From the IMG/VR virus record IMGVR_UViG_3300030708_002846, positions 1-61,525 of that record: 61,525 nt of DNA; one strand, written 5' to 3'. Source of the stretch: a virus (taxonomy: Duplodnaviria > Caudoviricetes). How positions within the stretch are numbered: position 1 is the first letter of the stretch; every line of letters starts with the position of its first letter. This document shows positions 4,238-56,783 of this stretch, piece by piece. The position numbers and the translations under genes are program-made. The notes below the pieces were generated by a model. It saw only the letters and a list, made by a program, of their open reading frames with translations. It did not search any database and was not told where the DNA came from.

Positions 4238-5058
4238 TAGAATGGTGTGGCTTCTTTTTTGACTTCTTTCTTAGCAGCTTCTTCTTTACCGAAGTCGACC
4301 TTACCAAAGATGTCCGATTTCATCGCACTCTCATAAAACGCTTTTGACGCTTCTAATGTACTCGCCAATTTTGGATCATCTAGATATCTATCGAATTCGA
4401 CAATCCACCCATACCAAGAGTTTTGTGAGTTACTTTCTTTAGTGGTCTTCAATCTATAGGCAGTAGCCCAAGACGGTGGAGTAAAGAAACCTTTTTTACC
4501 TTTAAGTCTTCTACTTGCAATCATTGAATTCCAAGTTTTAGATTTCTTCTTTTGAGTAGATTTCATAGTAATTAATGCGGTCTCCACAGGCACATAATTA
4601 CTATCTAAGATTTGTACAAAATGATTTCCTGTGTCTTCAACATAGTTACCATTTTCTAGTCTATCTTTACCGTCATCACCTCTTGTAGTTTGAGATAATA
4701 TTGAAGGCTCAGTATGTATACCAACAGGTCTACCAGGACTATCCCCTCTATCTTTCCACTCATTAAAGGTATTGATGTATAAACATGGTACAACGATTAA
4801 ACCATCTTTACCTTTGTATAAGGAACCAGTTATCTCATTGTAGATGTCACCTTGTTTAGCTGTCTCAATATACTTGCCATCTGATTCGTCAAGTACAGGT
4901 GAGTTTGCATAAAGGATTTTTAAAATAGGGAGTCTAGTATCCCTAGCAGTAACAAATTCTTGACCTTGTCCTGCTGACTCTTCCAAATTAAATGTAGTTG
5001 GAAGGGACGCTTCTTTTTTAACTGCTACATCCTTGGCAGCTTCTTTTGCTTGTTGCAT
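4237..5058 (-). CDS. putative single-stranded DNA-binding protein
   Basis: sits in the replication operon; charged tail ending PF. Confidence 0.5.
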   Translation of the reverse strand: MQQAKEAAKDVAVKKEASLPTTFNLEESAGQGQEFVTARDTRLPILKILYANSPVLDESDGKYIETAKQGDIYNEITGSLYKGKDGLIVVPCLYINTFNEWKDRGDSPGRPVGIHTEPSILSQTTRGDDGKDRLENGNYVEDTGNHFVQILDSNYVPVETALITMKSTQKKKSKTWNSMIASRRLKGKKGFFTPPSWATAYRLKTTKESNSQNSWYGWIVEFDRYLDDPKLASTLEASKAFYESAMKSDIFGKVDFGKEEAAKKEVKKEATPF

Positions 5059-5061
5059 TGT

Positions 5062-5607
5062 TTACTCCTTCGCTTTTATCTTTGTTCGTGTTGCTACGTA
5101 AACACCGAATAAATCGGCAGGAACATTACGACCATTTTCGATTTCATCTCTTACGAAACCTTTTAATGTCATAGGTTCTACCTTTTCGGCTTGCTTAACA
5201 TTATGCCCTTTATTTCTTAATTCGTCAACCAAAGTTTTAGCTTCATTATCTTGGCTTCTTCCAAAAGTTAAAGTAACATTATTTTTGATTAAATCTCCGT
5301 GACCATTATCACGTAACCAATCAAAAGCTTCTTCCTGTCTGGATACAGGTATCCTTGCTGCATAGTAAGGTTTTACTTCTACAGAGGAACCATCATTAAG
5401 TTTTAATAATTGTATCCCAGCTTGTTGCATGAGATTTGGAATATCGTTTTCAGAAAGTTTTGTTTCAGTCGCTTTTACTTTTTTTAATTTATCTTCTAGA
5501 TCTGATAGTTCTTTCTGGACGTCCAATAACTCATTACATTTTTTTGCTATGTCTGCTGACATGCTAGTATCGATTTTTACGTCTTTCGATAACTGTTCTA
5601 AGTCCAT
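5062..5607 (-). CDS. conserved phage replication-module protein (start reassigned to ATG 5607)
   Basis: AGGAGG SD upstream of ATG 5607; coiled-coil N-terminus; AFDWLRDNGHGDLIK motif. Confidence 0.75.
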   Translation of the reverse strand: MDLEQLSKDVKIDTSMSADIAKKCNELLDVQKELSDLEDKLKKVKATETKLSENDIPNLMQQAGIQLLKLNDGSSVEVKPYYAARIPVSRQEEAFDWLRDNGHGDLIKNNVTLTFGRSQDNEAKTLVDELRNKGHNVKQAEKVEPMTLKGFVRDEIENGRNVPADLFGVYVATRTKIKAKE

Positions 5608-5624
5608 ATGACCTCCTTGTTTAT

Positions 5625-31686: not shown

Positions 31687-32252
31687 TAATTATAATTAAA
31701 AGAAAAAGACATTCTTTTATCCTCTGTTAAATTTGGTTTTACTCTATGTTTTAACCAACTTGGAAACAAAATCAATAGGTTATCTTCAGGAACAACAAAA
31801 TACTTTGAGGAATTATATATATTATATTCTTTATGTTTAATTTTTTGTAAATGATATTCAATGGTTTCAAAATCATTTACAAATTCAATTGCACCAGAAT
31901 CTTTTTTTGTTTGTACATAAAACACACCAGATATAAGAGAATTTATATGACAATGAAGTATATTATAATTTCCAAAGTAATTTATGTTAGCCCATAAATT
32001 GTCAAGTTTTGTATTTTCAATATTAAAAACTTTTTTAAATATTTCTACATTCTTATTTAACTCTTTAATTAATTCTTGAACTTCTTCTTGTTTGTTATCT
32101 AAGTCGTTCGATTGAAAACCACCTTCATTAGATATTACTCTTTTGTTATTCTGTCTTTCTAAATTTTCAATATACAATTTTAATGTATCTAAATTTAGAT
32201 TTAATTTTTTAATATAAATAGGAGTGCTAAAAATGTTTATTACTTCATTCAT
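31686..32252 (-). CDS. 2OG-Fe(II) oxygenase (HxH type)
   Basis: WANIN...HCH..SLISGVFY...FPSWLKHRV.PN...RMSFSFN. Confidence 0.88.
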   Translation of the reverse strand: MNEVINIFSTPIYIKKLNLNLDTLKLYIENLERQNNKRVISNEGGFQSNDLDNKQEEVQELIKELNKNVEIFKKVFNIENTKLDNLWANINYFGNYNILHCHINSLISGVFYVQTKKDSGAIEFVNDFETIEYHLQKIKHKEYNIYNSSKYFVVPEDNLLILFPSWLKHRVKPNLTEDKRMSFSFNYN

Positions 32253-48425: not shown

Positions 48426-49910
48426 CTAATAATATTTGTACTGTTTTGGATTAGGATAGTCATACATATCCTCTTTCCAATCAGTAAGTAGTTCTATAAA
48501 ATTACCTTGTCTGTATCTTAACATGGCTTGAGACATACTATCTACATAGTCATCATGTGCACCATGAGGAAATGCAGCGCATTCTTCAATCACTTCCTCA
48601 GCCCAGTGTTCTCCCTCTGGATACCATATGGCTCCAGATTCGAAAAGTGGTGCAACCGAGTTAACTCTGACAAATTTATCTTTACCCTTGGTTGGTACGA
48701 AATCTACCACGGGTATTCCCATTCGTCTAAATTCTTGAGCGAGTGGTTGTCCTGTTGCCTTAGCTTCAATAACCACGGTCTCAGGCTCCCAGTACTTGTA
48801 CTGTTCGAGAGCTATGGCTTTAAGTTCAGGAAAATCATACTTACCCTTCATCGCGTCTAGTAGGATAACATTTGGTTCTTTGCCTTCTTCTGGAAAAAAT
48901 ATTCCCCAAGTTGTAATAGCAGAGTAGTCTGCAGTTTCTTTTTTTGAAAATGCTGTATCATAAGATTGTATAATTCCTTGTAAATTTGGAACATCTTTTT
49001 TCTTCCAAGGTCTCCACCATTCTCTTTTGATAATCGCACCTTCTTCAGAAGTTGGTTCTTGCATGTATTGTGCTGACCAATTTCTTATTGGTAAAGATGC
49101 TTTAACTTTCAGTAATTCTTCTTTCTCCCAATACTCAGGCCACACAGGTTCTTCATTAGGCATGATTGCAGGGAAAGAAATTTGTTTCCACCTGTCTGCC
49201 TTTGGTTCTTTTTGCGCCTTGATCAATCTGCCTGTAAGGTCATCCTGAGCCCATCTTGTCATTACGACAACAATTGTTCCTCCAGGTTGCAAACGTTGTC
49301 TGGGTCCTGATACGTACCAATCAAAACTTTTTTCCATAGCCGTATCAGACAAAGCATCTTGCTCAGTATGTGGATCATCGATAATAAGTAAGTCCGCCCC
49401 TCGTCCTGTGATAGAACCGCCTACCCCCGCTGCATAATATTCGCCACCATGATTGGTCTCCCAACGTCCTTTAGCCTTACTATCTTCTCTTAGTTTAACA
49501 TCTCCAAAGATCTGTTTATACTCTGGACTGTCCATTAGATTACGAACCTTTGAACCGAACCTTGCTGATAATTCTGAGTTATGTGATACCTGCATAATTT
49601 TTAATTTTGGAAACTTCCCTATCATCCAAGCAGGAAATAAATATGATGCAAATTCTGATTTAGTATGTCTAGGAGGCATATTAATTATGAGCCTTCCTTT
49701 ACGTTCCTTTGATATTTTAGTAAATTCTGCTGCTATTATCTGATGGTGCCCCCATCTTTTTGGGTTCTTATCTAATCTACATATGAAGTCAGGCCAAACA
49801 TTTTTTACAAAATATATAAAATTATCCTGACAAAGTTTAATATGTTCTATAAATTTTTTTTCAACAACAGCTCTTAACTGGTCAGTTGTTAATAATTCTT
49901 TTTGTACCAT
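48426..49910 (-). CDS. terL: terminase large subunit
   Basis: NMPPRHTKS, ITGRGADLLIIDDP, MTRW, SYDTA, HDDYVDS. Confidence 0.95.
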   Translation of the reverse strand: MVQKELLTTDQLRAVVEKKFIEHIKLCQDNFIYFVKNVWPDFICRLDKNPKRWGHHQIIAAEFTKISKERKGRLIINMPPRHTKSEFASYLFPAWMIGKFPKLKIMQVSHNSELSARFGSKVRNLMDSPEYKQIFGDVKLREDSKAKGRWETNHGGEYYAAGVGGSITGRGADLLIIDDPHTEQDALSDTAMEKSFDWYVSGPRQRLQPGGTIVVVMTRWAQDDLTGRLIKAQKEPKADRWKQISFPAIMPNEEPVWPEYWEKEELLKVKASLPIRNWSAQYMQEPTSEEGAIIKREWWRPWKKKDVPNLQGIIQSYDTAFSKKETADYSAITTWGIFFPEEGKEPNVILLDAMKGKYDFPELKAIALEQYKYWEPETVVIEAKATGQPLAQEFRRMGIPVVDFVPTKGKDKFVRVNSVAPLFESGAIWYPEGEHWAEEVIEECAAFPHGAHDDYVDSMSQAMLRYRQGNFIELLTDWKEDMYDYPNPKQYKYY

Positions 49911-50350
49911 CTATATTTAATCTCACTATGAACTTTTTCTTGCCACTCCCTGCCTGGTCTAGTTGTCCAACCTTTACCTTTTGCAAAGGGTCGAGTGACA
50001 GCTTCTTTTTCAAAGCCACAAGCATTCAAACTAATACCTGACTCTTTTTGTAGGGTATAAGTAATAATTTTTTTGCCACCCATAAGCTGCCATATGTTCC
50101 AAGCTTTTGCATACAAAAAACTATTAACATTTTTTGTTCCATCAGAACAGGTTCTTAGTACCTCTGCAGTATACCTATTATCTAACTTTCTAGCTACAGG
50201 TCTACCAAGCACTAGAATTCCTACTAATTTATCATTCTTCAAAGCTCCTAAACAAAATTTACAACCTCTTACCTTCTTACTATGTCGATGTAACTTAATT
50301 ATAAAATTGTTAGCTTCAGCCATTGAAATAGGGATACATTTCATTTTCAT
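49889..50350 (-). CDS. Mom/XF1762-like DNA-modification protein
   Basis: HRH, GRPVARKLD, EV.R.CSDG, SFLY, ITYT...ESG.SL. Confidence 0.7.
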   Translation of the reverse strand: MKMKCIPISMAEANNFIIKLHRHSKKVRGCKFCLGALKNDKLVGILVLGRPVARKLDNRYTAEVLRTCSDGTKNVNSFLYAKAWNIWQLMGGKKIITYTLQKESGISLNACGFEKEAVTRPFAKGKGWTTRPGREWQEKVHSEIKYRWYKKNY

Positions 50351-50868: not shown

Positions 50869-51124
50869 TATTCAACTGTTCAAGAATTGGTTTTAAATTT
50901 CTAATTAGATTTTGTTTTAATTCTTTAACAATATCATCATTAGGATACTTAACCAAAATTTCTTCAACTGCACTTTCTAACTGTTTATACATAAACTGAT
51001 AGTTTAAACTAGTTGTAGGGTTGTCAGTTGGTTGGTCAACTTGTTGAGCATTTTGCTCAACAAGTGTTGTATTAAGTATGTTAATTAAATCGTTATTAGG
51101 CATTAGCACCTCCGACTTTTTCAT
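50861..51124 (-). CDS. hypothetical early protein (likely start ATG 51103)
   Basis: GGAGG SD before MPNND. Confidence 0.6.
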   Translation of the reverse strand: MKKSEVLMPNNDLINILNTTLVEQNAQQVDQPTDNPTTSLNYQFMYKQLESAVEEILVKYPNDDIVKELKQNLIRNLKPILEQLNNE

Positions 51125-51458
51125 ACTTAACTTTGATTTCAGTTGTTTCTAATTCAACCAAAAATTCCTCGTACAGTTTTGGATATTTTTCTTTGAATTT
51201 AGATGTATCAAATCTTTTCATCTTTCTTTGAATAAGTTGAGCAAAACCCTCAAACTCATTGTCCATATCATTTAAGATAATAAGATTTGTTTTTAAGTCT
51301 TTGAAATATTCTACATATTCAGGTTTCATAAGACTTGTTTGTTTTGTGTATTCTGAAATTGTACTTTTCAAAATACCATAGTTTAACAATGCAAGTTTTT
51401 GTTTTTGACTTGCTTTTTTAACTCTTATTTTTTTAAGAGTGTTTTTTTGCTTTGTCAT
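51096..51458 (-). CDS. hypothetical early protein
   Basis: AGGAG SD; RFDTSKFKEKYP.LY motif. Confidence 0.7.
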   Translation of the reverse strand: MTKQKNTLKKIRVKKASQKQKLALLNYGILKSTISEYTKQTSLMKPEYVEYFKDLKTNLIILNDMDNEFEGFAQLIQRKMKRFDTSKFKEKYPKLYEEFLVELETTEIKVKYEKVGGANA

Positions 51459-51494: not shown

Positions 51495-51510
51495 TCTTAT
51501 ATAGATAAGA
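51495..51510. promoter_or_regulatory. operator-like inverted repeat in promoter
   Basis: TCTTAT-ATAG-ATAAGA. Confidence 0.6.
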
Positions 51511-51716
51511 TTTTTAAAAACAACCCTTTTTTTTACTATTTCAAAAAAAAATTTCCTCCATAGAGCCACGCACATTAAGATTTCGACCTCAATGCGACCT
51601 ATACCTCATAGCCTTTTTTTATCAAACCAACTTTTAAATTTTCCGACATAGTTCCGTGCTGGGACTTTAATCTTTCTTCTTAAAATAACTAGAGAACGCA
51701 GAAACGAGAAACGAGA

Positions 51717-51737
51717 CGGCACGGTTTGACCGTGCCG
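51717..51737 (-). terminator. hairpin terminator after 51778..52281
   Basis: CGGCACGGT / ACCGTGCCG 9-bp stem with pyrimidine-rich tail. Confidence 0.55.
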
Positions 51738-51777
51738 ATTGTATAAATAATAAGCACAACATAGATAGACTACTACT

Positions 51778-52281
51778 TCAACAAATTCGAAATCCATTAC
51801 TATCTTCGCAGAACTCAATGAACTCTTTTACGTTTTCCAAAGTGAATGGATAAGAACTTCCATAATCATATTTAGATTGAATCCAATTCCACGTGTCATG
51901 GTCTTCAGCAGGGTAGTCTCTTGGTGCTAGACCTTTCTTGTTTGTTTCAGCTTCAACTTTCTTCCGAAGCATTTCATGTAGCTTATTTACTTGGGCGTTG
52001 TTGGTCTCGGCTTTTTTTGTATCTTCCTTTGTTTCATCAATAGCTTTTTTTACCATGCCATTATCAATCAAAGCCCTTAATTGATTTGCTATCTGTTTCG
52101 CTTTTTCGCCACTTACCTCATGTCCCTCGTTATGTTGCCACGCAGGTTTATCTTCATGCTCAATAACTCCCGTGTGTTCACATACAAATTGAGCGAGGCG
52201 TCTCCACCACCAAACATTGTTTCTGAAGTATTCGCCCTTTTCTGTTTTGTGTTGTCCTAGACTGTATAAATCAAAGCCCAT
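51778..52281 (-). CDS. conserved hypothetical early protein
   Basis: MGFDLY; YFRNNVWWW; own promoter and AGGAG SD. Confidence 0.8.
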   Translation of the reverse strand: MGFDLYSLGQHKTEKGEYFRNNVWWWRRLAQFVCEHTGVIEHEDKPAWQHNEGHEVSGEKAKQIANQLRALIDNGMVKKAIDETKEDTKKAETNNAQVNKLHEMLRKKVEAETNKKGLAPRDYPAEDHDTWNWIQSKYDYGSSYPFTLENVKEFIEFCEDSNGFRIC

Positions 52282-52305
52282 ATTTTCTCCTTTTGTTTAT
52301 GTTTA

Positions 52306-52341
52306 TCCCATCAATGTAAGACTTTATTTGGTAAAGTCAAG
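52306..52341 (-). promoter_or_regulatory. sigma70-like promoter with operator
   Basis: TTGACT-16-TACATT; TCCCAT-CAAT-GTAAGA at 52306-52321. Confidence 0.65.
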
Positions 52342-52508
52342 TACAAAATTTTCACGATCCACGAGAGCTTCTGGAAGAAAAACTGGGGGGCTGGCTCTGG
52401 GAGCTGGTCTTTACACTCTTGAGTGTCGCCCAACGAGGAACTACCAACGAGACCACGCCTCTTCCACCCGAACCTCCTCCAGCATCACCAGCTGTGGCGC
52501 CAGGGACA

Positions 52509-52619
52509 TTACCATAATGTTATAGCTGCTAGGACCGCGAACGCAATAAACGAGGGAACGCGAGCTGCAATGGCTGCCGAAACGGCAGCCCATCCAATGA
52601 TCATGATCCCCACTAACAT
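52509..52619 (-). CDS. 36-aa hydrophobic membrane peptide; not in ORF track
   Basis: manual translation MLVGIMIIGWAAVSAAIAARVPSFIAFAVLAAITLW; starts right after the upstream stop. Confidence 0.5.
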   Translation of the reverse strand: MLVGIMIIGWAAVSAAIAARVPSFIAFAVLAAITLW

Positions 52620-52620
52620 G

Positions 52621-52956
52621 TTACCTGCCCCATGTGATTCCCTCCACATCTGTCTTGAACTTAACGTGTTGACGCAACTGCATCTTCGTAAGGATCCTTG
52701 GCACGTTGTCTAACAAACCTTCACCTTTGAGTCTGCTGCCCTTGGTAATGCGTACCCACATTTTCTCTGTGCCACCGCGCTCCTTGAACCACACGTACAC
52801 ATACTCCCGCATCGAAGGCCTTCTCTCCAGTGCTTTTATTTTAAAATATGTTTCTTTGCCGTGTTCAGGGCACGAGAAGACAACATTGTCTTCTTCCATT
52901 TGTTTGGCTTCTTCTGAGTCCAGAGGATCTCTCCAAATAAATTTATCTTTGGTCAT
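52621..52956 (-). CDS. DUF2314-like hypothetical protein
   Basis: EKMWV...G.LDN.P motif. Confidence 0.6.
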   Translation of the reverse strand: MTKDKFIWRDPLDSEEAKQMEEDNVVFSCPEHGKETYFKIKALERRPSMREYVYVWFKERGGTEKMWVRITKGSRLKGEGLLDNVPRILTKMQLRQHVKFKTDVEGITWGR

Positions 52957-53033
52957 AGTATTACCCCCACGAGCTTCAGGATAACAATGATGCTAACGCA
53001 AAAGGTTAGCTCTACTAGTATACTTTTAGACAT
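52953..53033 (-). CDS. 26-aa membrane peptide; not in ORF track
   Basis: manual translation MSKSILVELTFCVSIIVILKLVGVIL; AGGAG SD; ATGA overlap. Confidence 0.55.
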   Translation of the reverse strand: MSKSILVELTFCVSIIVILKLVGVIL

Positions 53034-53054
53034 TTCTTTCTCCTATGTTATGTG

Positions 53055-53091
53055 TCCCATGTATATAAGACTTCTATCTCCTGCTGTCAAG
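53055..53091 (-). promoter_or_regulatory. sigma70-like promoter with operator
   Basis: TTGACA-17-TATATA; TCCCAT-GTAT-ATAAGA at 53055-53070. Confidence 0.7.
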
Positions 53092-53388
53092 AATTTTTTT
53101 CCAGAACTTTTCCCACACGAGTCGTGAGCTCTGGTGCTGGGCTCAGCGTCCTATCCTCTTGGTCAGCGAATGGCGATGAACGAGGACGAGGAAACGAGGA
53201 CTTGGATACCATCACCTGCTTCCCAGATCCACGCTGCACCAGCCAGTATCCTATTTACCTGAGTGGTGTCAAACGAGAGTTCATCAACGAGAACGTAGGA
53301 TCGGGAGACATTCGCTTCCGCAGCACCCAGCTCCTGGCGCCAGAGTCCATGCTTCTTGAGTGGCATAAAACGAGGAAACGAGAACGAG

Positions 53389-53784
53389 CTAACGTGGACT
53401 TCGGGCTGCAGCACCAGCCGTTCTGGCCAGTAGGTTCCTGATCCCTGTTGTGCTTATGTCCGAGGACGTAGCAACGAGGTCAACGCAACGAGATTCACGG
53501 TTCACGGCCAGAATTTCTATGGCTCTTTGCTTGAGGGGGGAGTTCAGAATAAATACTTTACCACCTGCCCTTTGATATTTAATATGCCAATTGATTTGCC
53601 ACTTTGACAGGCCTCGATTCTTGAGATCATTTGCTTTGAGTTCGAGCCAAAAAATAGTATTGTTTAGCACACAATGAACATCTGGAATTCCATTAGTTGT
53701 ACTGCTTTCTACCCTTGTAAAATGTGCGTTTTCTTTAATCTTCTTGATACGATTCCACAGCTTAGTTTCACCAGTTTGAGACAC
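53389..53784 (-). CDS. VRR-NUC / Holliday junction resolvase-like nuclease
   Basis: GIPDV...FWLELK...LS..Q..W...AGG. Confidence 0.78.
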   Translation of the reverse strand: MSQTGETKLWNRIKKIKENAHFTRVESSTTNGIPDVHCVLNNTIFWLELKANDLKNRGLSKWQINWHIKYQRAGGKVFILNSPLKQRAIEILAVNRESRCVDLVATSSDISTTGIRNLLARTAGAAARSPR

Positions 53785-53796
53785 AAATAAATCCGA

Positions 53797-54009
53797 TCAA
53801 GAATTGCAAATGCAACCGTAAAAATCACCACTTCCATCTTTCATAACATGACGATTTATGGGTGAATCTAAATAGTCTGTAAGGTGTAATCTTACGATAT
53901 CACATAGATTAAAACAGTCTAATTCAGCATAAATTTTTACATTTTGTAACATTTCTTTGGTAACTTCTACCAACGAATATAAACCATCATTGTAAATAAT
54001 CAGTTCCAT
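53797..54009 (-). CDS. hypothetical protein
   Basis: ORF with TAATG coupling. Confidence 0.6.
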   Translation of the reverse strand: MELIIYNDGLYSLVEVTKEMLQNVKIYAELDCFNLCDIVRLHLTDYLDSPINRHVMKDGSGDFYGCICNS

Positions 54010-54323
54010 TATAATTTCCTTATTGATGTTATTACACTATTAGGAATAATAGTTGTATTTCCTACACTCTCCATGTGACCTGCATCTCCTTCAGCTCCGT
54101 CCTTTAAACCAAAATCAGCAAAGATTCTTGTAATACCTTTTGAACGAGACAACAAATGTCCCTTAGTAACACATCTTCCTAACTGACTTTTATGCACAGC
54201 ATCAATTGTTTGCCAACCTGCCTCTCCAACAATATCTAACCACTGCACTTCTACCAAAGGGTACTTATCAATTTGAGTTTTTTCAAGTTTTTTATTTATC
54301 TTTATGATTTTTCGTGATGACAT
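54009..54323 (-). CDS. conserved hypothetical phage protein
   Basis: V.W.D...GW; GNTTIIP motif. Confidence 0.7.
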   Translation of the reverse strand: MSSRKIIKINKKLEKTQIDKYPLVEVQWLDIVGEAGWQTIDAVHKSQLGRCVTKGHLLSRSKGITRIFADFGLKDGAEGDAGHMESVGNTTIIPNSVITSIRKL

Positions 54324-54397
54324 ATACGTTTCCTATACTAGTTGTTAATGTGCTGTTATGCACTTCGTTAAATACCTTCATAAACATTTTCCAGTCT

Positions 54398-54916
54398 TTA
54401 GTCTTTAACAGACGTTTCTGGCGTAATGTCAATGATGTTTTTGGCTTCACCGATTTTCGACTCAAGCTCATCTAAACGTTTCTCCAATTGCTCTCTTGAT
54501 AATCCTTCTAATCCTAAATGTGTTACTTCTTTTCGATCAACAAAGAAACCTGCCATTTTGCCTTTTGCTACCTCAGCATTAATTGCTGCAGTAAACTGAC
54601 CTTTGTTCTCTGCACCGTTTCGTAACCTGTCATAAGTTTTATAAGATTTTAATTTATCTTTTTCGTAAATTGCTAATTCTTGAGCCATTCGTTTTTCTAA
54701 GTATCTACAAACATGTGGATTAACATCAGGATTGGTTAATCTACTTGCTGTCTCAGTAGGGCCATATTTGTTTTTGGAAGTGTAACCAGCTTCTTTAGCT
54801 GCATCTACCTTCGAAATCTTGCCATAATTCTCTACGTAAATATCTACAAATCTTTTTTGTTTTGGTGTTAATTCAGTAATTGTCCGTAAAGCTTTTGATT
54901 TTTGTGGCATGTCCAT
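54398..54916 (-). CDS. terS: terminase small subunit
   Basis: LTPKQKRFV..Y...AAKEAGY HTH; AAI.AE...GK.AG. Confidence 0.8.
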   Translation of the reverse strand: MDMPQKSKALRTITELTPKQKRFVDIYVENYGKISKVDAAKEAGYTSKNKYGPTETASRLTNPDVNPHVCRYLEKRMAQELAIYEKDKLKSYKTYDRLRNGAENKGQFTAAINAEVAKGKMAGFFVDRKEVTHLGLEGLSREQLEKRLDELESKIGEAKNIIDITPETSVKD

Positions 54917-54930
54917 ATACTATACCTCTA

Positions 54931-55080
54931 TCCTAGAAAAATAAATACAGGTCAATAAAATTCTATTTTTTGTTCGTAAGAAATGTAATTTTTCCTAGAA
55001 TTCTAGGAAAATTCCTAGTAGTTTCCTAGTTCTTTTTGTTCTATTAGTGTTGATATTACTTGTTTTTCCTAGTTTCCTAG
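54931..55080. repeat. TCCTAG repeat cluster with 22-bp palindrome
   Basis: TTTTCCTAGAATTCTAGGAAAA at 54990-55011, plus copies at 54931, 55012, 55023, 55066 and 55074. Confidence 0.75.
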
Positions 55081-55209
55081 TAAAAAGTGTTGAAATGAAA
55101 AAAAATTATTTATTTTTTTTTCTAAGTAAAGGGTATAGGGAAACACACTACATTAGAACGTTTCTAAAGTACTTTTTGGTTGATTTTCATGTGAATCACG
55201 TATATCTCT

Positions 55210-55295
55210 ATAGTGTTTTTCATTTAGCTCTTTTCTCACATAAACAGGAGGTCAACATGGATTGGATCCAGGGGGAAACCCCTTCCATGCTGGCC
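55210..55295 (+). ncRNA. candidate small RNA 1 (leader mimic, GAAA-capped stem); 5' end uncertain
   Basis: 55250-55261 pairs with 55284-55295; AGGGG-GAAA-CCCCT; possible TTGATT -35 at 55180. Confidence 0.45.
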
Positions 55296-55349
55296 CGTGA
55301 GCCGTGGTCAATTGCTCTTGACAACAGGTTCAAAAAAATTATATACCGT

Positions 55350-55425
55350 ACACGATTAATTAATCATCCCTACGTTTATGTTTAAGGTAGCTCTGGGGAG
55401 GGGAGACTCGAACCAGGGCTTAAAC
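55350..55425 (+). ncRNA. candidate small RNA 2 (antisense seed plus GAGA-capped stem)
   Basis: TTGACA(55318)-16-TATATA promoter; AGCTCTGG/CCAGGGCT stem; GGG-GAGA-CTC cap. Confidence 0.45.
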
Positions 55426-55890
55426 AATCACAGAAATAAGGATACTAGTAAACAAAGCTGTCGTTGCATCACTCACGCATCTTCGTAAATGTTCTAAATG
55501 TTTACGATGGTATTTTTTAGATTCATGCTCCTTACAATCACGGTACTTGTGATATTGAACATAATATCTTCTCCAGGCTACTTGTTTTTGGGTAAATTTT
55601 ATATCACCTCTTTTAATGGCTTTTATATACTGTTCTTTTACATGCTCAGGGGTAAAACCTGACCAGTAACAAATCCTTTCGAAATCATCGTTAGAATTAA
55701 AAATCCAGTTATGTGCATCGAATTTATATACACTAGACTTACGATCATTTTGATTAGTTGCTGAATCTTCAATGGCATTACATAAAACACCACGCCACAG
55801 CTTCTCCTCTGATGGCACCTCTTGTGTAGAAAGTAACTTAGCTGCGAAGCTAGTGCCCATAAGTTTTAATAAGGTAAGTGAGTAAGTCAC
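55420..55890 (-). CDS. conserved hypothetical phage protein (likely start ATG 55860)
   Basis: E.KLWR.VL..A.ED; DF..IC motif. Confidence 0.7.
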   Translation of the reverse strand: MTYSLTLLKLMGTSFAAKLLSTQEVPSEEKLWRGVLCNAIEDSATNQNDRKSSVYKFDAHNWIFNSNDDFERICYWSGFTPEHVKEQYIKAIKRGDIKFTQKQVAWRRYYVQYHKYRDCKEHESKKYHRKHLEHLRRCVSDATTALFTSILISVIV

Positions 55891-56062
55891 GATAGTAAAC
55901 TACCCTTTCTGGGTCACTTCTTTTTTTCTTGAAATGGAAATTATAATCATCTTCAACATTTTCTATTAAATTTGTTATATCTTGTCCAGTCCATCCCTCT
56001 ATTTTAGGTATATCAAGAAAGTCCTTAAATAAACTCATATCTATAGTGTACTCATTTGCCAT
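55850..56062 (-). CDS. hypothetical protein
   Basis: ORF in tightly overlapping operon. Confidence 0.65.
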   Translation of the reverse strand: MANEYTIDMSLFKDFLDIPKIEGWTGQDITNLIENVEDDYNFHFKKKRSDPERVVYYRDLLTYLIKTYGH

Positions 56063-56321
56063 CTAATTTTCCACCTTCTATAACATTTAACCGCACTATC
56101 TTTGCCTTCTTTTCTACCCTTTTTTGCTTAAAATTTTTCCATATCATTTGTATATCCTGCATAAAATTTGGATCAAATGTTTCATTGTAATCAAATTTTT
56201 GACCCATATACAATCTAAACATCACACCTGTTACAAGTGCGTACTCTTTCATAGTCAATTTTTTTGCAAGTATATGTATGGATTTATGTAAATCGCTAAT
56301 GTCTTGTGTATTTTTTGCCAC
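56052..56321 (-). CDS. hypothetical protein
   Basis: ORF in operon; LNVIEGGK tail. Confidence 0.65.
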   Translation of the reverse strand: MAKNTQDISDLHKSIHILAKKLTMKEYALVTGVMFRLYMGQKFDYNETFDPNFMQDIQMIWKNFKQKRVEKKAKIVRLNVIEGGKLDGK

Positions 56322-56562
56322 GAATCAATTCCTTTAATTTTGTTAAAATGCTAACAATTATTGAGCCGTGACTCGTGTTGATTGGTTCTAGATACCCATT
56401 ACCATCGCAATGCTGACATAACTTTAAAGGATCTGTAGCTTGTAGTTCTTCTGCGTTTGCAAAATATCCATTTCCTTTACAGGTTATACATATTTCGTAT
56501 GATTGTACCTTATCAAAAGGATTAATTTCTTTAATACCAAATGTCAAACCTTTTTTTCTCAT
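56296..56562 (-). CDS. DnaJ-type CxxCxGxG zinc-finger protein
   Basis: CITCKGNG and CQHCDGNG. Confidence 0.75.
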   Translation of the reverse strand: MRKKGLTFGIKEINPFDKVQSYEICITCKGNGYFANAEELQATDPLKLCQHCDGNGYLEPINTSHGSIIVSILTKLKELIRGKKYTRH

Positions 56563-56783
56563 ATACCCCCTCCTTTTCTCATTGCATCCAAACTGAATGT
56601 CTTATCATGGTATGGTTTAGTTCTTGGATTTTTACCTTTAGGCCACCTACATTTTATTTTCATTATTCTTTCATTATGCATTTTACCAGATACAATTATT
56701 ATATCATGACCATTTTCATGACTATGCACATGATGTCTTATATACTCTGGAAGTGTAATTTCAGAATTATCTTTTTTACTCAT
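56559..56783 (-). CDS. hypothetical protein (start reassigned to ATG 56783)
   Basis: TAATG coupling and AGGA SD. Confidence 0.6.
   Translation of the reverse strand: MSKKDNSEITLPEYIRHHVHSHENGHDIIIVSGKMHNERIMKIKCRWPKGKNPRTKPYHDKTFSLDAMRKGGGI

What the first reader, a model, noticed from the sequence alone, without database searches (positions are those of the whole stretch)
55318..55425. Candidate sRNA 2 with a seed antisense to several early-gene initiation regions
Seen: promoter TTGACA-16-TATATA, then GTTTATGTTTA (55374-55384), then a GAGA-capped hairpin. The same 11-mer occurs on the + strand, so antisense to - strand mRNAs, at 52295 (upstream of the SD of gene 52281), 57723 (upstream of the SD of gene 57709) and 57949 (codons 3-6 of gene 57966). 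The 8-mer GTTTATGT occurs at 5619 in the replication leader and is complementary to sRNA 1. Inferred: a multi-target translational silencer paired with an adjacent sponge, forming an RNA timing circuit. AT richness raises chance matches, but every 11-mer hit I found is at an initiation region.
Basis: partly seen in the sequence, partly recalled or inferred. Interest (0 to 1): 0.8.

Follow-up and report, generated by a model that had tools for sequence, protein, structure and literature searches.

The report
Conserved small RNA gene in pelagiphage
A short non-coding RNA gene sits between the early genes and the packaging genes of this ocean phage, and its exposed stretch matches the ribosome-landing sites of a few phage genes, a match that changes in step in related phages, so it probably switches those genes off.

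Summary
The 11-mer occurs 4 times, all on the + strand, against 0.19 expected.

The window is a whole 61.5-kb HTVC023P-type pelagiphage contig. The same unit lies at the same place, upstream of the small terminase gene, in 36 IMG/VR contigs plus L012. It consists of a promoter, a 5' hairpin, a conserved single-stranded stretch and a GAGA-capped hairpin. A U-tract follows the hairpin in three of the four seed classes, but not in the window's class.

Both hairpins show compensatory changes: 97.5% of cells paired, 12 pairs changed on both sides, 0 of 500 shuffles as high.

The key result is that the single-stranded seed differs between classes and the leader just 5' of the Shine-Dalgarno of the gene 51778-52281 ortholog changes with it.

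I read it as a trans-acting antisense sRNA that blocks translation initiation.

- **Weak points:** no expression data, no U-tract in the window, only moderate energy ranks, and one proposed target (5619) that does not co-vary.
- **The "sponge":** plausible in two classes, absent in two.
- **Known families:** none matches in Rfam.

The parts
55318..55345 (+). Promoter P_B of the small RNA: -35 TTGACA (55318-55323), 16-nt spacer, -10 TATATA (55340-55345). The predicted start is near A55350-A55352 (inferred).
   Evidence: Read. In the alignment of 8 class-B sequences, CTTGACA and TATATAC are invariant while the 16-nt spacer varies freely. Classes A, C and D carry TTGACT/TTGACA-type hexamers at the same place.
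55354..55365 (+). 5' hairpin SL1, an AT-rich palindrome (GATTAATTAATC).
   Evidence: Folded. Class-B relatives carry other palindromes at the same spot. In class A, SL1 has 8 pairs, 5 of them with changes on both sides, and 99.3% of cells are paired.
55367..55384 (+). Single-stranded targeting region: a CU-rich anti-SD piece (UCCCU, 55367-55371) and the seed GUUUAUGUUUA (55374-55384).
   Evidence: GTTTATGT is invariant in 8 of 8 class-B sequences. The longest exact matches of the whole RNA to the genome all fall on this seed: 12, 11, 11 and 11 nt. Predicted duplexes with the 52281 leader reach into the SD.
55390..55419 (+). GAGA-capped hairpin (arms 55390-55396 and 55413-55419; conserved top GGGAGACT at 55401-55408). 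It abuts the stop codon (55420-55422) of the convergent gene. No U-tract follows it in this class.
   Evidence: Compensatory changes occur in class B (GCTCTGG/CCAGGGC, GGGCTGG/CCAGCCC, AGTCCTGG/CCAGGACT). GGGAGACT is invariant in 29 of 29 sequences. In classes A, C and D the same hairpin is followed by a T-run on the + strand.
55180..55259 (+). Upstream promoter-like P_A (TTGATT 55180-55185, 17 nt, TATCTC 55203-55208) and a pseudo-initiation region: ACATAAAC (55238-55245), SD AGGAGG (55246-55251), ATG (55257). It may act as a cis target mimic of the seed.
   Evidence: Conserved in classes A and B. The open frame after the ATG is 2 codons in 21 of 22 class-A rows and 2, 2, 16, 16, 18, 18 and 42 codons in class B; class C has none. 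The minimum-energy folds of the long transcript pair this leader with the seed in the window and in L076, but not in class A L072. It resembles the initiation region of gene 5062-5607.
52279..52340 (-). Best-supported target: promoter (-35 at 52335-52340, -10 at 52313-52318), leader with the seed complement (52295-52305), SD (52287-52292) and start codon (52279-52281) of gene 51778-52281, a 167-aa protein of unknown function that begins MGFD.
   Evidence: The leader co-varies with the seed in classes A, B, C and D.
57709..57734 (-). Candidate target: a 12-nt seed complement (57723-57734) 5' of the SD of gene 57413-57709.
   Evidence: It is conserved in class-B relatives L001, L004/L027 and L006/L019/L020. 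The gene is not found in the class A/C loci searched.
57949..57966 (-). Candidate target: the seed complement in codons 3-6 of gene 57709-57966.
   Evidence: In L002/L003 the RNA reads ..ATGTG and the site reads CACAT.., a matched change on both partners. It is absent in L006/L019/L020. In class A the ortholog carries a 9-mer complement further in, about 70-95 nt after the first in-frame ATG, in 6 loci.

Best explanation
55318-55422(+) is a small non-coding RNA gene of about 70 nt in an HTVC023P-type pelagiphage.

A sigma-70-type promoter fires against the direction of nearly all phage genes. The RNA folds into a short 5' hairpin, an exposed stretch of about 20 nt and a GAGA-capped 3' hairpin. 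In sister classes that hairpin is an intrinsic terminator.

The exposed stretch pairs in trans with a few phage mRNAs on the other strand. Pairing falls right at the ribosome-binding site: an 8-12-nt seed lands on the leader just 5' of the Shine-Dalgarno (or on the first codons), and a neighbouring CU-rich piece lands on the Shine-Dalgarno itself. This should block 30S binding and so repress translation.

The conserved target is the gene 51778-52281, of unknown function. 57413-57709 and 57709-57966 are further candidates in this class.

- **Shown:** the anatomy, its conservation, the compensatory changes in both hairpins, and the change of seed and target leader in step.
- **Inferred:** transcription, the 3' end in this class, repression, and any role of the upstream mimic.
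For: 1. **Recurrence.** The pattern scan found 81 stretches. Of these, 36, plus the window, carry GGGAGACT 235-367 nt downstream of the anchor, giving 34 distinct sequences. L012 has the same unit without the anchor.
2. **Promoter signature.** The hexamers are invariant and the spacer is free.
3. **Structure.** In class A (19 sequences) 97.5% of cells are paired and 12 of 23 pairs have changes on both sides. None of 500 shuffles reaches this, and slid controls reach at most 59% paired. U.G pairs in the stem would be C.A mismatches on the other strand.
4. **Terminator.** A T-run follows the hairpin on the + strand in classes A, C and D.
5. **Seed and target change together.** Longest complementarity of the RNA to the leader of the 52281 ortholog is 9-11 nt within class B, against 4-6 nt for B RNA with A or C leaders and for A or C RNA with B leaders. 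Class D has its own 9-mer at an MGLD-gene leader. Shuffles of the RNA stretch that reach the observed length number 7, 21, 18, 47 and 87 of 5000 for the five representatives. Duplex energies with the own partner are -13.9 to -19.4 kcal/mol and are the best in their column for A, C and D. In the two class-B columns the best RNA is L076 (-14.9), just ahead of the window's (-14.3); class D comes close at -13.6.
6. **Matched change in L002/L003** at the 57949 site.
7. **Enrichment at initiation regions.** Of 57 complementary matches of 9 nt or more, 19 fall in initiation windows against 5.0 expected; the contigs are related, so the counts are not independent.
8. **Not a protein gene.** The 42-aa frame that ends in the 11-mer is not conserved.
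Against: - No RNA run holds the stretch, so transcription is unproven (recorded under Tried and rejected).
- In the window's class the hairpin is followed by UUAAAC, not a U-tract, so the 3' end is unknown.
- The class-A covariance model finds the window copy only at 13.6 bits, E 0.69, rank 4 of 27. Homology therefore rests on synteny and the conserved hairpin top.
- Energy-based ranking is only moderate. The motif-bearing initiation regions rank 7, 8, 9 and 12 of 90. A genome-wide duplex scan does not put the three sites in its top 25.
- 38 of the 57 matches of 9 nt or more lie outside initiation windows.
- The 5619 site does not co-vary in classes A and C.
- In the complete class-A genome G001 the only exact copy of the 10-mer tried lies on the RNA's strand beside the RNA locus L028, so it is presumably the RNA itself; I did not check the coordinates. 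One-mismatch copies number 8 forward and 10 reverse, against 1 and 7 for the control pattern.
- Classes A and C share most of the seed, so there are about three independent seed states, not five.
- Identity on one DNA strand is also what a repeated protein-binding site would give.
Confidence: 0.6

Rival explanations
1. The unit is a cis-acting boundary element. One or two promoters fire against the end of the early operon, and a bidirectional hairpin terminator stops or interferes with read-through into the packaging genes, or makes an antisense partner for read-through RNA. Any trans complementarity would be incidental.
For: - The unit sits exactly between the last upstream gene (stop codon at 55420-55422) and the small terminase gene.
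- Two tandem + strand promoters face the minus-strand operon.
- In class A the hairpin is preceded by an A-run, so it could terminate both ways.
- In the window's class the RNA has no U-tract and would run antisense into gene 55420-55890.
Against: - This does not explain the invariant single-stranded stretch between two co-varying hairpins.
- It does not explain why that stretch and the distant 52281 leader change together.
- It is compatible with the main reading as a second function.
Confidence: 0.15
2. The 11-mer is a repeated DNA site for a phage protein, in the manner of the one-orientation 'stoperator' sites of mycobacteriophages (recalled, not from a call). Alternatively it is a gene-boundary recombination sequence. 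The copy at 55374 would be one more such site.
For: - All 4 exact copies are in one orientation on the DNA.
- Covariation seen as identity on one strand fits a site that co-evolves with its binding protein.
- Other repeats that look like protein sites lie nearby: the CCTAG array and the TTAGAAC..TTCTAA palindrome.
Against: - There are only 4 copies.
- The part of the RNA that matches the leader shifts register between classes, which pairing tolerates and a fixed protein site does not: TAAGTTAGTT, GTTAAGTTA, GTTAGTTG.
- The match extends into the SD through U.G-compatible differences (and hand alignment rows).
- The copy at 55374 is framed by a promoter, a co-varying hairpin and, in sister classes, a terminator.
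- No conservation beyond the 11-mer is shared by all four copies.
Confidence: 0.1
3. The stretch is the 3' end of a small protein gene, 55257-55385(+), 42 aa, with a strong SD. The 11-mer would simply encode Val-Tyr-Val-stop.
For: AGGAGG lies 5 nt before the ATG at 55257, and the frame is open to the TAA at 55383-55385, inside the 11-mer.
Against: - The frame length after the conserved SD-ATG is 2 codons in 21 of 22 class-A rows and in L037/L050, 16 in L027/L054, 18 in L076/L097, and 42 only in the window. Class C has no such start.
- The 42-aa product has no Pfam or PHROG match.
Confidence: 0.03
4. Chance: an AT-rich 11-mer recurs in an AT-rich genome.
For: The genome is 34% G+C, and many 8-9-mers of the RNA recur at random places.
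Against: - 0 of 100 shuffles give 4 copies.
- The pattern repeats with other seeds in other classes.
Confidence: 0.02

Closest known systems
DicF of the E. coli Qin prophage, a trans-acting phage-derived sRNA (review PMC12197685; passages read)
   Same: Both are short phage-encoded RNAs that, according to the review, base-pair with an mRNA and prevent its translation. Both have a terminator-like 3' structure and more than one target.
   Different: DicF is cut from an operon transcript and acts on host genes such as ftsZ. This RNA has its own promoter, lies in a lytic-type pelagiphage, and its supported targets are phage genes. There is no sequence or Rfam relationship.
Cis-antisense RNAs of temperate phages: lambda OOP and P22 sar (review PMC12197685; passages read)
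   Same: All are small RNAs of about 70 nt made from a promoter that fires against the main transcription, and all are used to repress a phage gene.
   Different: OOP and sar overlap their target gene and are fully complementary to it. This RNA lies in an intergenic gap and matches targets 2.3-3.1 kb away through only 8-12 nt.
P1/P7 c4 antisense RNA and P4 CI RNA (recalled, not from a call)
   Same: In those systems a short RNA pairs with short repeated complementary boxes that cover a ribosome-binding site, and complementary boxes also lie upstream in the same transcript. That resembles the upstream mimic here.
   Different: Those RNAs are processed from the transcript that carries the target and serve immunity in temperate elements. 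Here the targets are on the opposite strand, and no lysogeny function was seen in the proteins I scanned against Pfam or PHROGs. I did not scan all genes.
Mycobacteriophage stoperators (recalled, not from a call)
   Same: Both are short asymmetric repeats in one orientation near gene starts.
   Different: As I recall, stoperators are DNA sites bound by a repressor and number in the tens. This genome has 4 copies, one of them inside an RNA-gene-like unit.

Membership tests
Any Rfam 15 family | Match to a curated covariance model at its gathering score | tested here: not met
   0 matches in the whole window at gathering score. In 54900-55500 the lax search gave 3 matches, E 1.3-9.3, none over the RNA.
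Trans-acting base-pairing sRNA with intrinsic terminator | Own promoter | tested here: inconclusive
   The hexamers are conserved and the spacer is free in 8 of 8 class-B sequences, and the other classes have equivalents. The tool's consensus scan does not list it. There is no transcript-start data.
Trans-acting base-pairing sRNA with intrinsic terminator | Conserved, unpaired seed between structured parts | tested here: met
   In class A the consensus leaves columns 22-40 unpaired and nearly invariant. GTTTATGT is invariant in class B. In the window, part of the seed (UGUUUA) can also pair with UUAAAC after the hairpin.
Trans-acting base-pairing sRNA with intrinsic terminator | G+C-rich hairpin followed by a U-tract | tested here: not met
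   Not met in the window and its class, where the hairpin is followed by TTAAAC. Met in classes A, C and D.
Trans-acting base-pairing sRNA with intrinsic terminator | Complementarity to targets at initiation regions that is kept through changes on both partners | tested here: met
   Met for the 52281 ortholog leader in four seed classes and through the L002/L003 matched change at 57949. Not met for 5619.
Trans-acting base-pairing sRNA with intrinsic terminator | The RNA is made, and it represses its targets | not testable with these tools
   No RNA holder was listed.
Cis-antisense RNA (OOP/sar kind) | Overlaps the gene it controls on the other strand | tested here: not met
   No minus-strand gene overlaps 55350-55419. 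The hairpin only abuts the stop codon at 55420-55422.
Small protein gene | Open frame conserved among relatives | tested here: not met
   Frame lengths are 2, 16, 18 and 42 codons, or the start is absent.
Stoperator-like repeated DNA site | Many copies (tens) in one orientation across the genome | tested here: not met
   4 exact copies and 11 with up to 1 mismatch, of which 3 are on the other strand.

The most novel reading that the evidence does not exclude
The locus may be a self-contained RNA switch with two outputs from two tandem promoters.

The upstream promoter would make a long form that carries a decoy ribosome-binding site. The decoy looks like a copy of the initiation region of the DUF7307 gene, with a start codon but almost no reading frame. 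It folds back on the seed and keeps it silent. The inner promoter would make the short, active silencer.

The balance between the two promoters would then set when the target genes (the MGFD gene and small genes downstream of the polymerase) are translated. That balance might be governed by the palindrome upstream of the outer promoter.

Probability: 0.2. Interest if true: 0.75.

Novelty: new member of a known kind. Interest (0 to 1): 0.6.

Why it matters
[quoted passage not shown] Their hosts, SAR11 bacteria, are known for very small regulatory repertoires (recalled).

I found no report of a small RNA in pelagiphages:
- 'pelagiphage' with 'small RNA' returned 2 unrelated papers.
- The 80-genome HTVC023P-type study has no occurrence of sRNA, small RNA, promoter, terminator, intergenic or noncoding in its main text.

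If it is real, this would be a conserved post-transcriptional regulator in a dominant marine virus. It has natural 'seed-swap' variants that predict exactly which compensatory mutations to test. It also points to a conserved protein of unknown function (MGFD; confident model, no known fold) whose dose the phage apparently needs to control.

Tried and rejected
**Expression.** The look-up of sequencing runs on 51500-58500 listed 24 runs. 20 hold the stretch or part of it, and none is on record as RNA: no RNA holder listed.

**Known RNA families.** Rfam at gathering score and at lax threshold gave nothing over the RNA. ARAGORN found 0 tRNA or tmRNA genes. I ran it because the minus strand of the hairpin looks like a tRNA T-arm.

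**Close DNA relatives among isolated phages.**
- No megablast match.
- blastn of the class-A unit found no match.
- blastn of the window's gap found only the CCTAG-repeat part of HTVC023P.
- HTVC023P has a diverged hairpin unit without the GAGA top at the same place, and its leader shows no clear match to it (covariance model 17.2 bits, E 0.11).
- In HTVC027P the small terminase gene lies on the opposite strand to the DNA polymerase gene, unlike in the window.

**Covariance model of class A on the window.** The real copy scored only 13.6 bits, so it is no membership proof.

**Energy-based target ranking.** See the Against line.

**More class-B members.** I read 117 new loci; 3 had a GGRAGAC within 130 nt and none was the element.

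**Function of the main target.**
- No Pfam or PHROG family.
- The Atlas gave only unnamed viral clusters.
- The AlphaFold model has pLDDT 91.2, and 0 of 500 PDB matches reach E 0.001 or better.
- tblastn found no significant similarity between the class-D MGLD protein and MGFD (E 6.6). Calling it an ortholog rests on position and end motifs only.

**Other points.**
- One leader (L028) was picked wrongly by my pattern. The right one is the L033 row.
- Supplements of papers were not seen. Those of PMC12753301 and PMC9599517 might hold transcript or annotation data that bear on this locus.

Full report
**What the window is.** The window is the whole record: one contig of 61,525 bases. Almost all long open frames lie on the minus strand. 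The DNA polymerase is 71% identical to that of Pelagibacter phage HTVC023P. The finding lies in a 500-base gap (54917-55419). On one side is the last gene of a run of small genes downstream of the polymerase (55420-55890, minus). On the other is the small terminase subunit (54398-54916, minus). The large terminase is at 48426-49910.

TTGACA (55318-55323), a 16-nt spacer and TATATA (55340-55345) are followed by GTTTATGTTTA at 55374-55384 and then by a hairpin. The hairpin arms are 55390-55396 and 55413-55419, and it is capped by GAGA. The 11-mer occurs four times, always on the + strand, against 0.19 expected; 0 of 100 shuffles reach four.

- two bases 5' of the Shine-Dalgarno of gene 51778-52281;
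- 5' of the Shine-Dalgarno of gene 57413-57709;
- in codons 3-6 of gene 57709-57966.

Two corrections are needed. A shifted 11-mer at 31830 lies inside a gene. Gene 52281 sits between the two terminase genes, so it is not shown to be early.

**A frame I had to exclude.** On the + strand a strong Shine-Dalgarno (AGGAGG) and an ATG at 55257 open a 42-codon frame whose last codons and stop are the 11-mer itself. Relatives settle this. After the conserved SD-ATG the frame is 2 codons in 21 of 22 class-A rows and in two class-B contigs. It is 16, 18 and 42 codons in the other class-B contigs, and class C has no such start. It is not a conserved protein gene.

**Relatives.** Searches with the small terminase protein and with the upstream protein gave 17 and 6 IMG/VR loci. 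Seven of these align with the window across the whole gap. In that alignment:
- CTTGACA and TATATAC are invariant while the 16 bases between them vary freely;
- GTTTATGT is invariant;
- the hairpin arms change in a compensatory way (GCTCTGG/CCAGGGC, GGGCTGG/CCAGCCC, AGTCCTGG/CCAGGACT);
- the hairpin top GGGAGACT is invariant.

A conserved motif about 285 bases upstream served as an anchor for a scan of viral contigs. It gave 81 stretches. Of these, 36, plus the window, carry GGGAGACT 235-367 bases downstream in the same orientation, giving 34 distinct sequences. L012 has the same unit without the anchor.

**Four seed classes, one architecture.** Each class has a -35/-10 pair, a short 5' hairpin, about 20 single-stranded bases and a GAGA-capped hairpin. 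I sorted the rows into classes by eye and by seed motif.
- Class B: the window and 7 other contigs.
- Class A: most of the rest, 22 of the 34 distinct rows.
- Class C: 5 contigs.
- Class D: L012.

In classes A, C and D the hairpin is followed by a run of T on the + strand, so it is a plain intrinsic terminator. In class B it is followed by TTAAAC, because the stop codon of the convergent gene abuts it.

On 19 class-A sequences the consensus fold has 23 pairs:
- 97.5% of cells are paired;
- 12 pairs show changes on both sides;
- none of 500 shuffles reaches any of the five measures;
- sliding the partners by 1-3 columns drops pairing to 37-59%.

The stretch between the two hairpins is unpaired and almost invariant within a class. 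That is the usual picture of a seed.

**The decisive point: seed and target change together.** The protein of gene 51778-52281 begins MGFD. It has orthologs in 20 distinct leader contexts among the loci.

| Class | Leader 5' of the Shine-Dalgarno | Matching piece of the class's RNA |
|---|---|---|
| B | TAAACATAAAC | GTTTATGTTTA |
| A | AAACTAACTTAAC | TAAGTTAGTT |
| C | AAATTAACTTAAC | GTTAAGTTA |
| D | AAACAAAGA, before the start of an MGLD gene; a second 9-mer lies before another start | TCTTTGTTT |

- **Longest complementarity.** It is 9-11 nt for B RNA with B leaders. It is 4-6 nt for B RNA with A or C leaders and for A or C RNA with B leaders.
- **Shuffling the RNA stretch.** The observed length is reached in 7, 21, 18, 47 and 87 of 5000 trials for the five representatives.
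- **Duplex energies.** With the own partner they are -13.9 to -19.4 kcal/mol, the best in their column for A, C and D. In the two class-B columns the L076 RNA (-14.9) is just ahead of the window's (-14.3), and class D comes close (-13.6).
- **Reach into the SD.** In every class a CU-rich piece lies 5' of the seed (UCCCU, CUCC, UUCUUUC, UUCUUUG, UCUU), and the predicted duplex extends into the Shine-Dalgarno.

Classes A and C share most of their seed, so I count about three independent states.

**Other targets are less even.**
- **57949.** In L002/L003 the RNA reads ..ATGTG where the window has ..ATGTT, and the site reads CACAT.. where the window has AACAT... This is a matched change that costs an amino-acid replacement. 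The site is missing in L006/L019/L020. In class A the same gene carries a 9-mer match to the class-A seed further in, about 70-95 nt after the first in-frame ATG, in 6 loci. The third codon positions are unchanged there while neighbouring codons vary.
- **57723.** The site is kept in class B, but the gene is not found in the class A and C loci searched.
- **51096-51458.** The leader has an exact 9-mer in L002, L003, L005 and L054 and one mismatch in the window.
- **5619.** The 8-mer before the DUF7307 gene has no counterpart in the complete class-A and class-C genomes, so I do not count it as a conserved target.

Over 29 non-redundant loci, 19 of 57 matches of 9 nt or more fall within -30 to +20 of a start that has a Shine-Dalgarno, against 5.0 expected. 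The other 38 do not, and the loci are related.

Energy ranking is only moderate. The four motif-bearing starts rank 7, 8, 9 and 12 of 90. A genome-wide duplex scan does not bring the sites into its top 25.

**The 'sponge'.** About 135 bases upstream on the same strand lies a second promoter-like pair (TTGATT, 17 nt, TATCTC; 55180-55208). It is followed by ACATAAAC, AGGAGG and ATG (55238-55259). This is an initiation region in the same sense orientation as the real targets. It is close in sequence to that of gene 5062-5607.

No terminator lies between it and the inner promoter, so it would be the 5' part of a longer form of the same RNA.

The folds are mixed:
- The minimum-energy fold of the long form pairs this leader with the seed in the window (z -2.85).
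- It does the same in L076, whose two partners both differ from the window's.
- In class A the fold instead pairs the seed with the -10 region of the inner promoter.
- Classes C and D have one promoter and no mimic.

A self-sequestering long form is therefore possible but not general.

**Rivals.**
- A repeated protein-binding site would also show as identity on one strand. Four things speak against it: only four copies, shifts of register between classes, extension into the SD through U.G-compatible differences, and the RNA-gene frame around the 55374 copy.
- A boundary or insulator role for the convergent promoters and hairpin is compatible with the data. It may well coexist with the main reading.

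**What is known.** Rfam has no match. I found no report of pelagiphage small RNAs. Phage-derived base-pairing RNAs such as DicF, OOP and sar are well described (review PMC12197685, passages read). So this is a new member of a known kind.

**What is missing.** Any evidence of transcription, the 3' end in class B, and the function of the MGFD protein. Its model is confident (pLDDT 91.2) but matches no solved fold.

Noticed in passing
window 54990-55085: An array of TTCCTAG/CTAGGAA repeats, some forming inverted pairs, lies just upstream of the small terminase gene. It is conserved in the relatives and in HTVC023P. It could be a packaging (pac) site or a cluster of regulator sites.
   Followed up: partly
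window 55113-55140: A T-run followed by CTAAG, 4 nt and GGGTATAGGG is conserved across classes A-C. I used it as the anchor pattern, and 36 of the 81 hits in viral contigs belong to this phage group. Its function is unknown; it might be a late promoter on the minus strand.
   Followed up: partly
window 55153-55167: A palindrome, TTAGAAC-GT-TTCTAA, lies just upstream of the outer promoter. Similar TTAGAA..TTCTAA or TTTAGAACCATTATAAAC motifs stand before the promoter in classes A and C. It looks like an operator or activator site for the RNA's promoter.
   Followed up: no
window 55292-55307: GGCCCGTGAGCCGTGG (a CCGTG-NN-CCGTG motif) is conserved, but its position relative to the promoters differs between classes, and it also occurs in HTVC023P. 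Unexplained.
   Followed up: no
window 52330-52620 and 53100-53530: Two islands of 50-57% G+C lie in a 34% G+C genome and are rich in AACGAG-like repeats. The frame 53389-53784(-) has weak endonuclease/helicase PHROG matches. They may be a mobile insertion or a homing-endonuclease remnant.
   Followed up: no
window 51778-52281 (-): The main target encodes a 167-aa protein (MGFD...) that is conserved in this phage group, including HTVC023P gp23 (44.6% identity). Its model is confident (pLDDT 91.2), but it has no Pfam, PHROG or PDB relative. It has its own sigma-70-like promoter (TTGACT, 16 nt, TACATT).
   Followed up: partly
window 56296-56562 (-): This 88-aa protein has weak matches to Q-like antitermination proteins (PHROG E 1.6e-4 and 8.3e-3).
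   Followed up: no
window 49889-50350 (-): A Mom-like DNA modification protein (PHROG E 2.2e-29) lies directly upstream of the large terminase gene.
   Followed up: no
L105 (HTVC023P) 4422-4820: In HTVC023P the equivalent gap holds an extra 132-aa gene (gp20) on the RNA's strand, with its own terminator. A diverged hairpin unit without the GAGA top follows it.
   Followed up: partly
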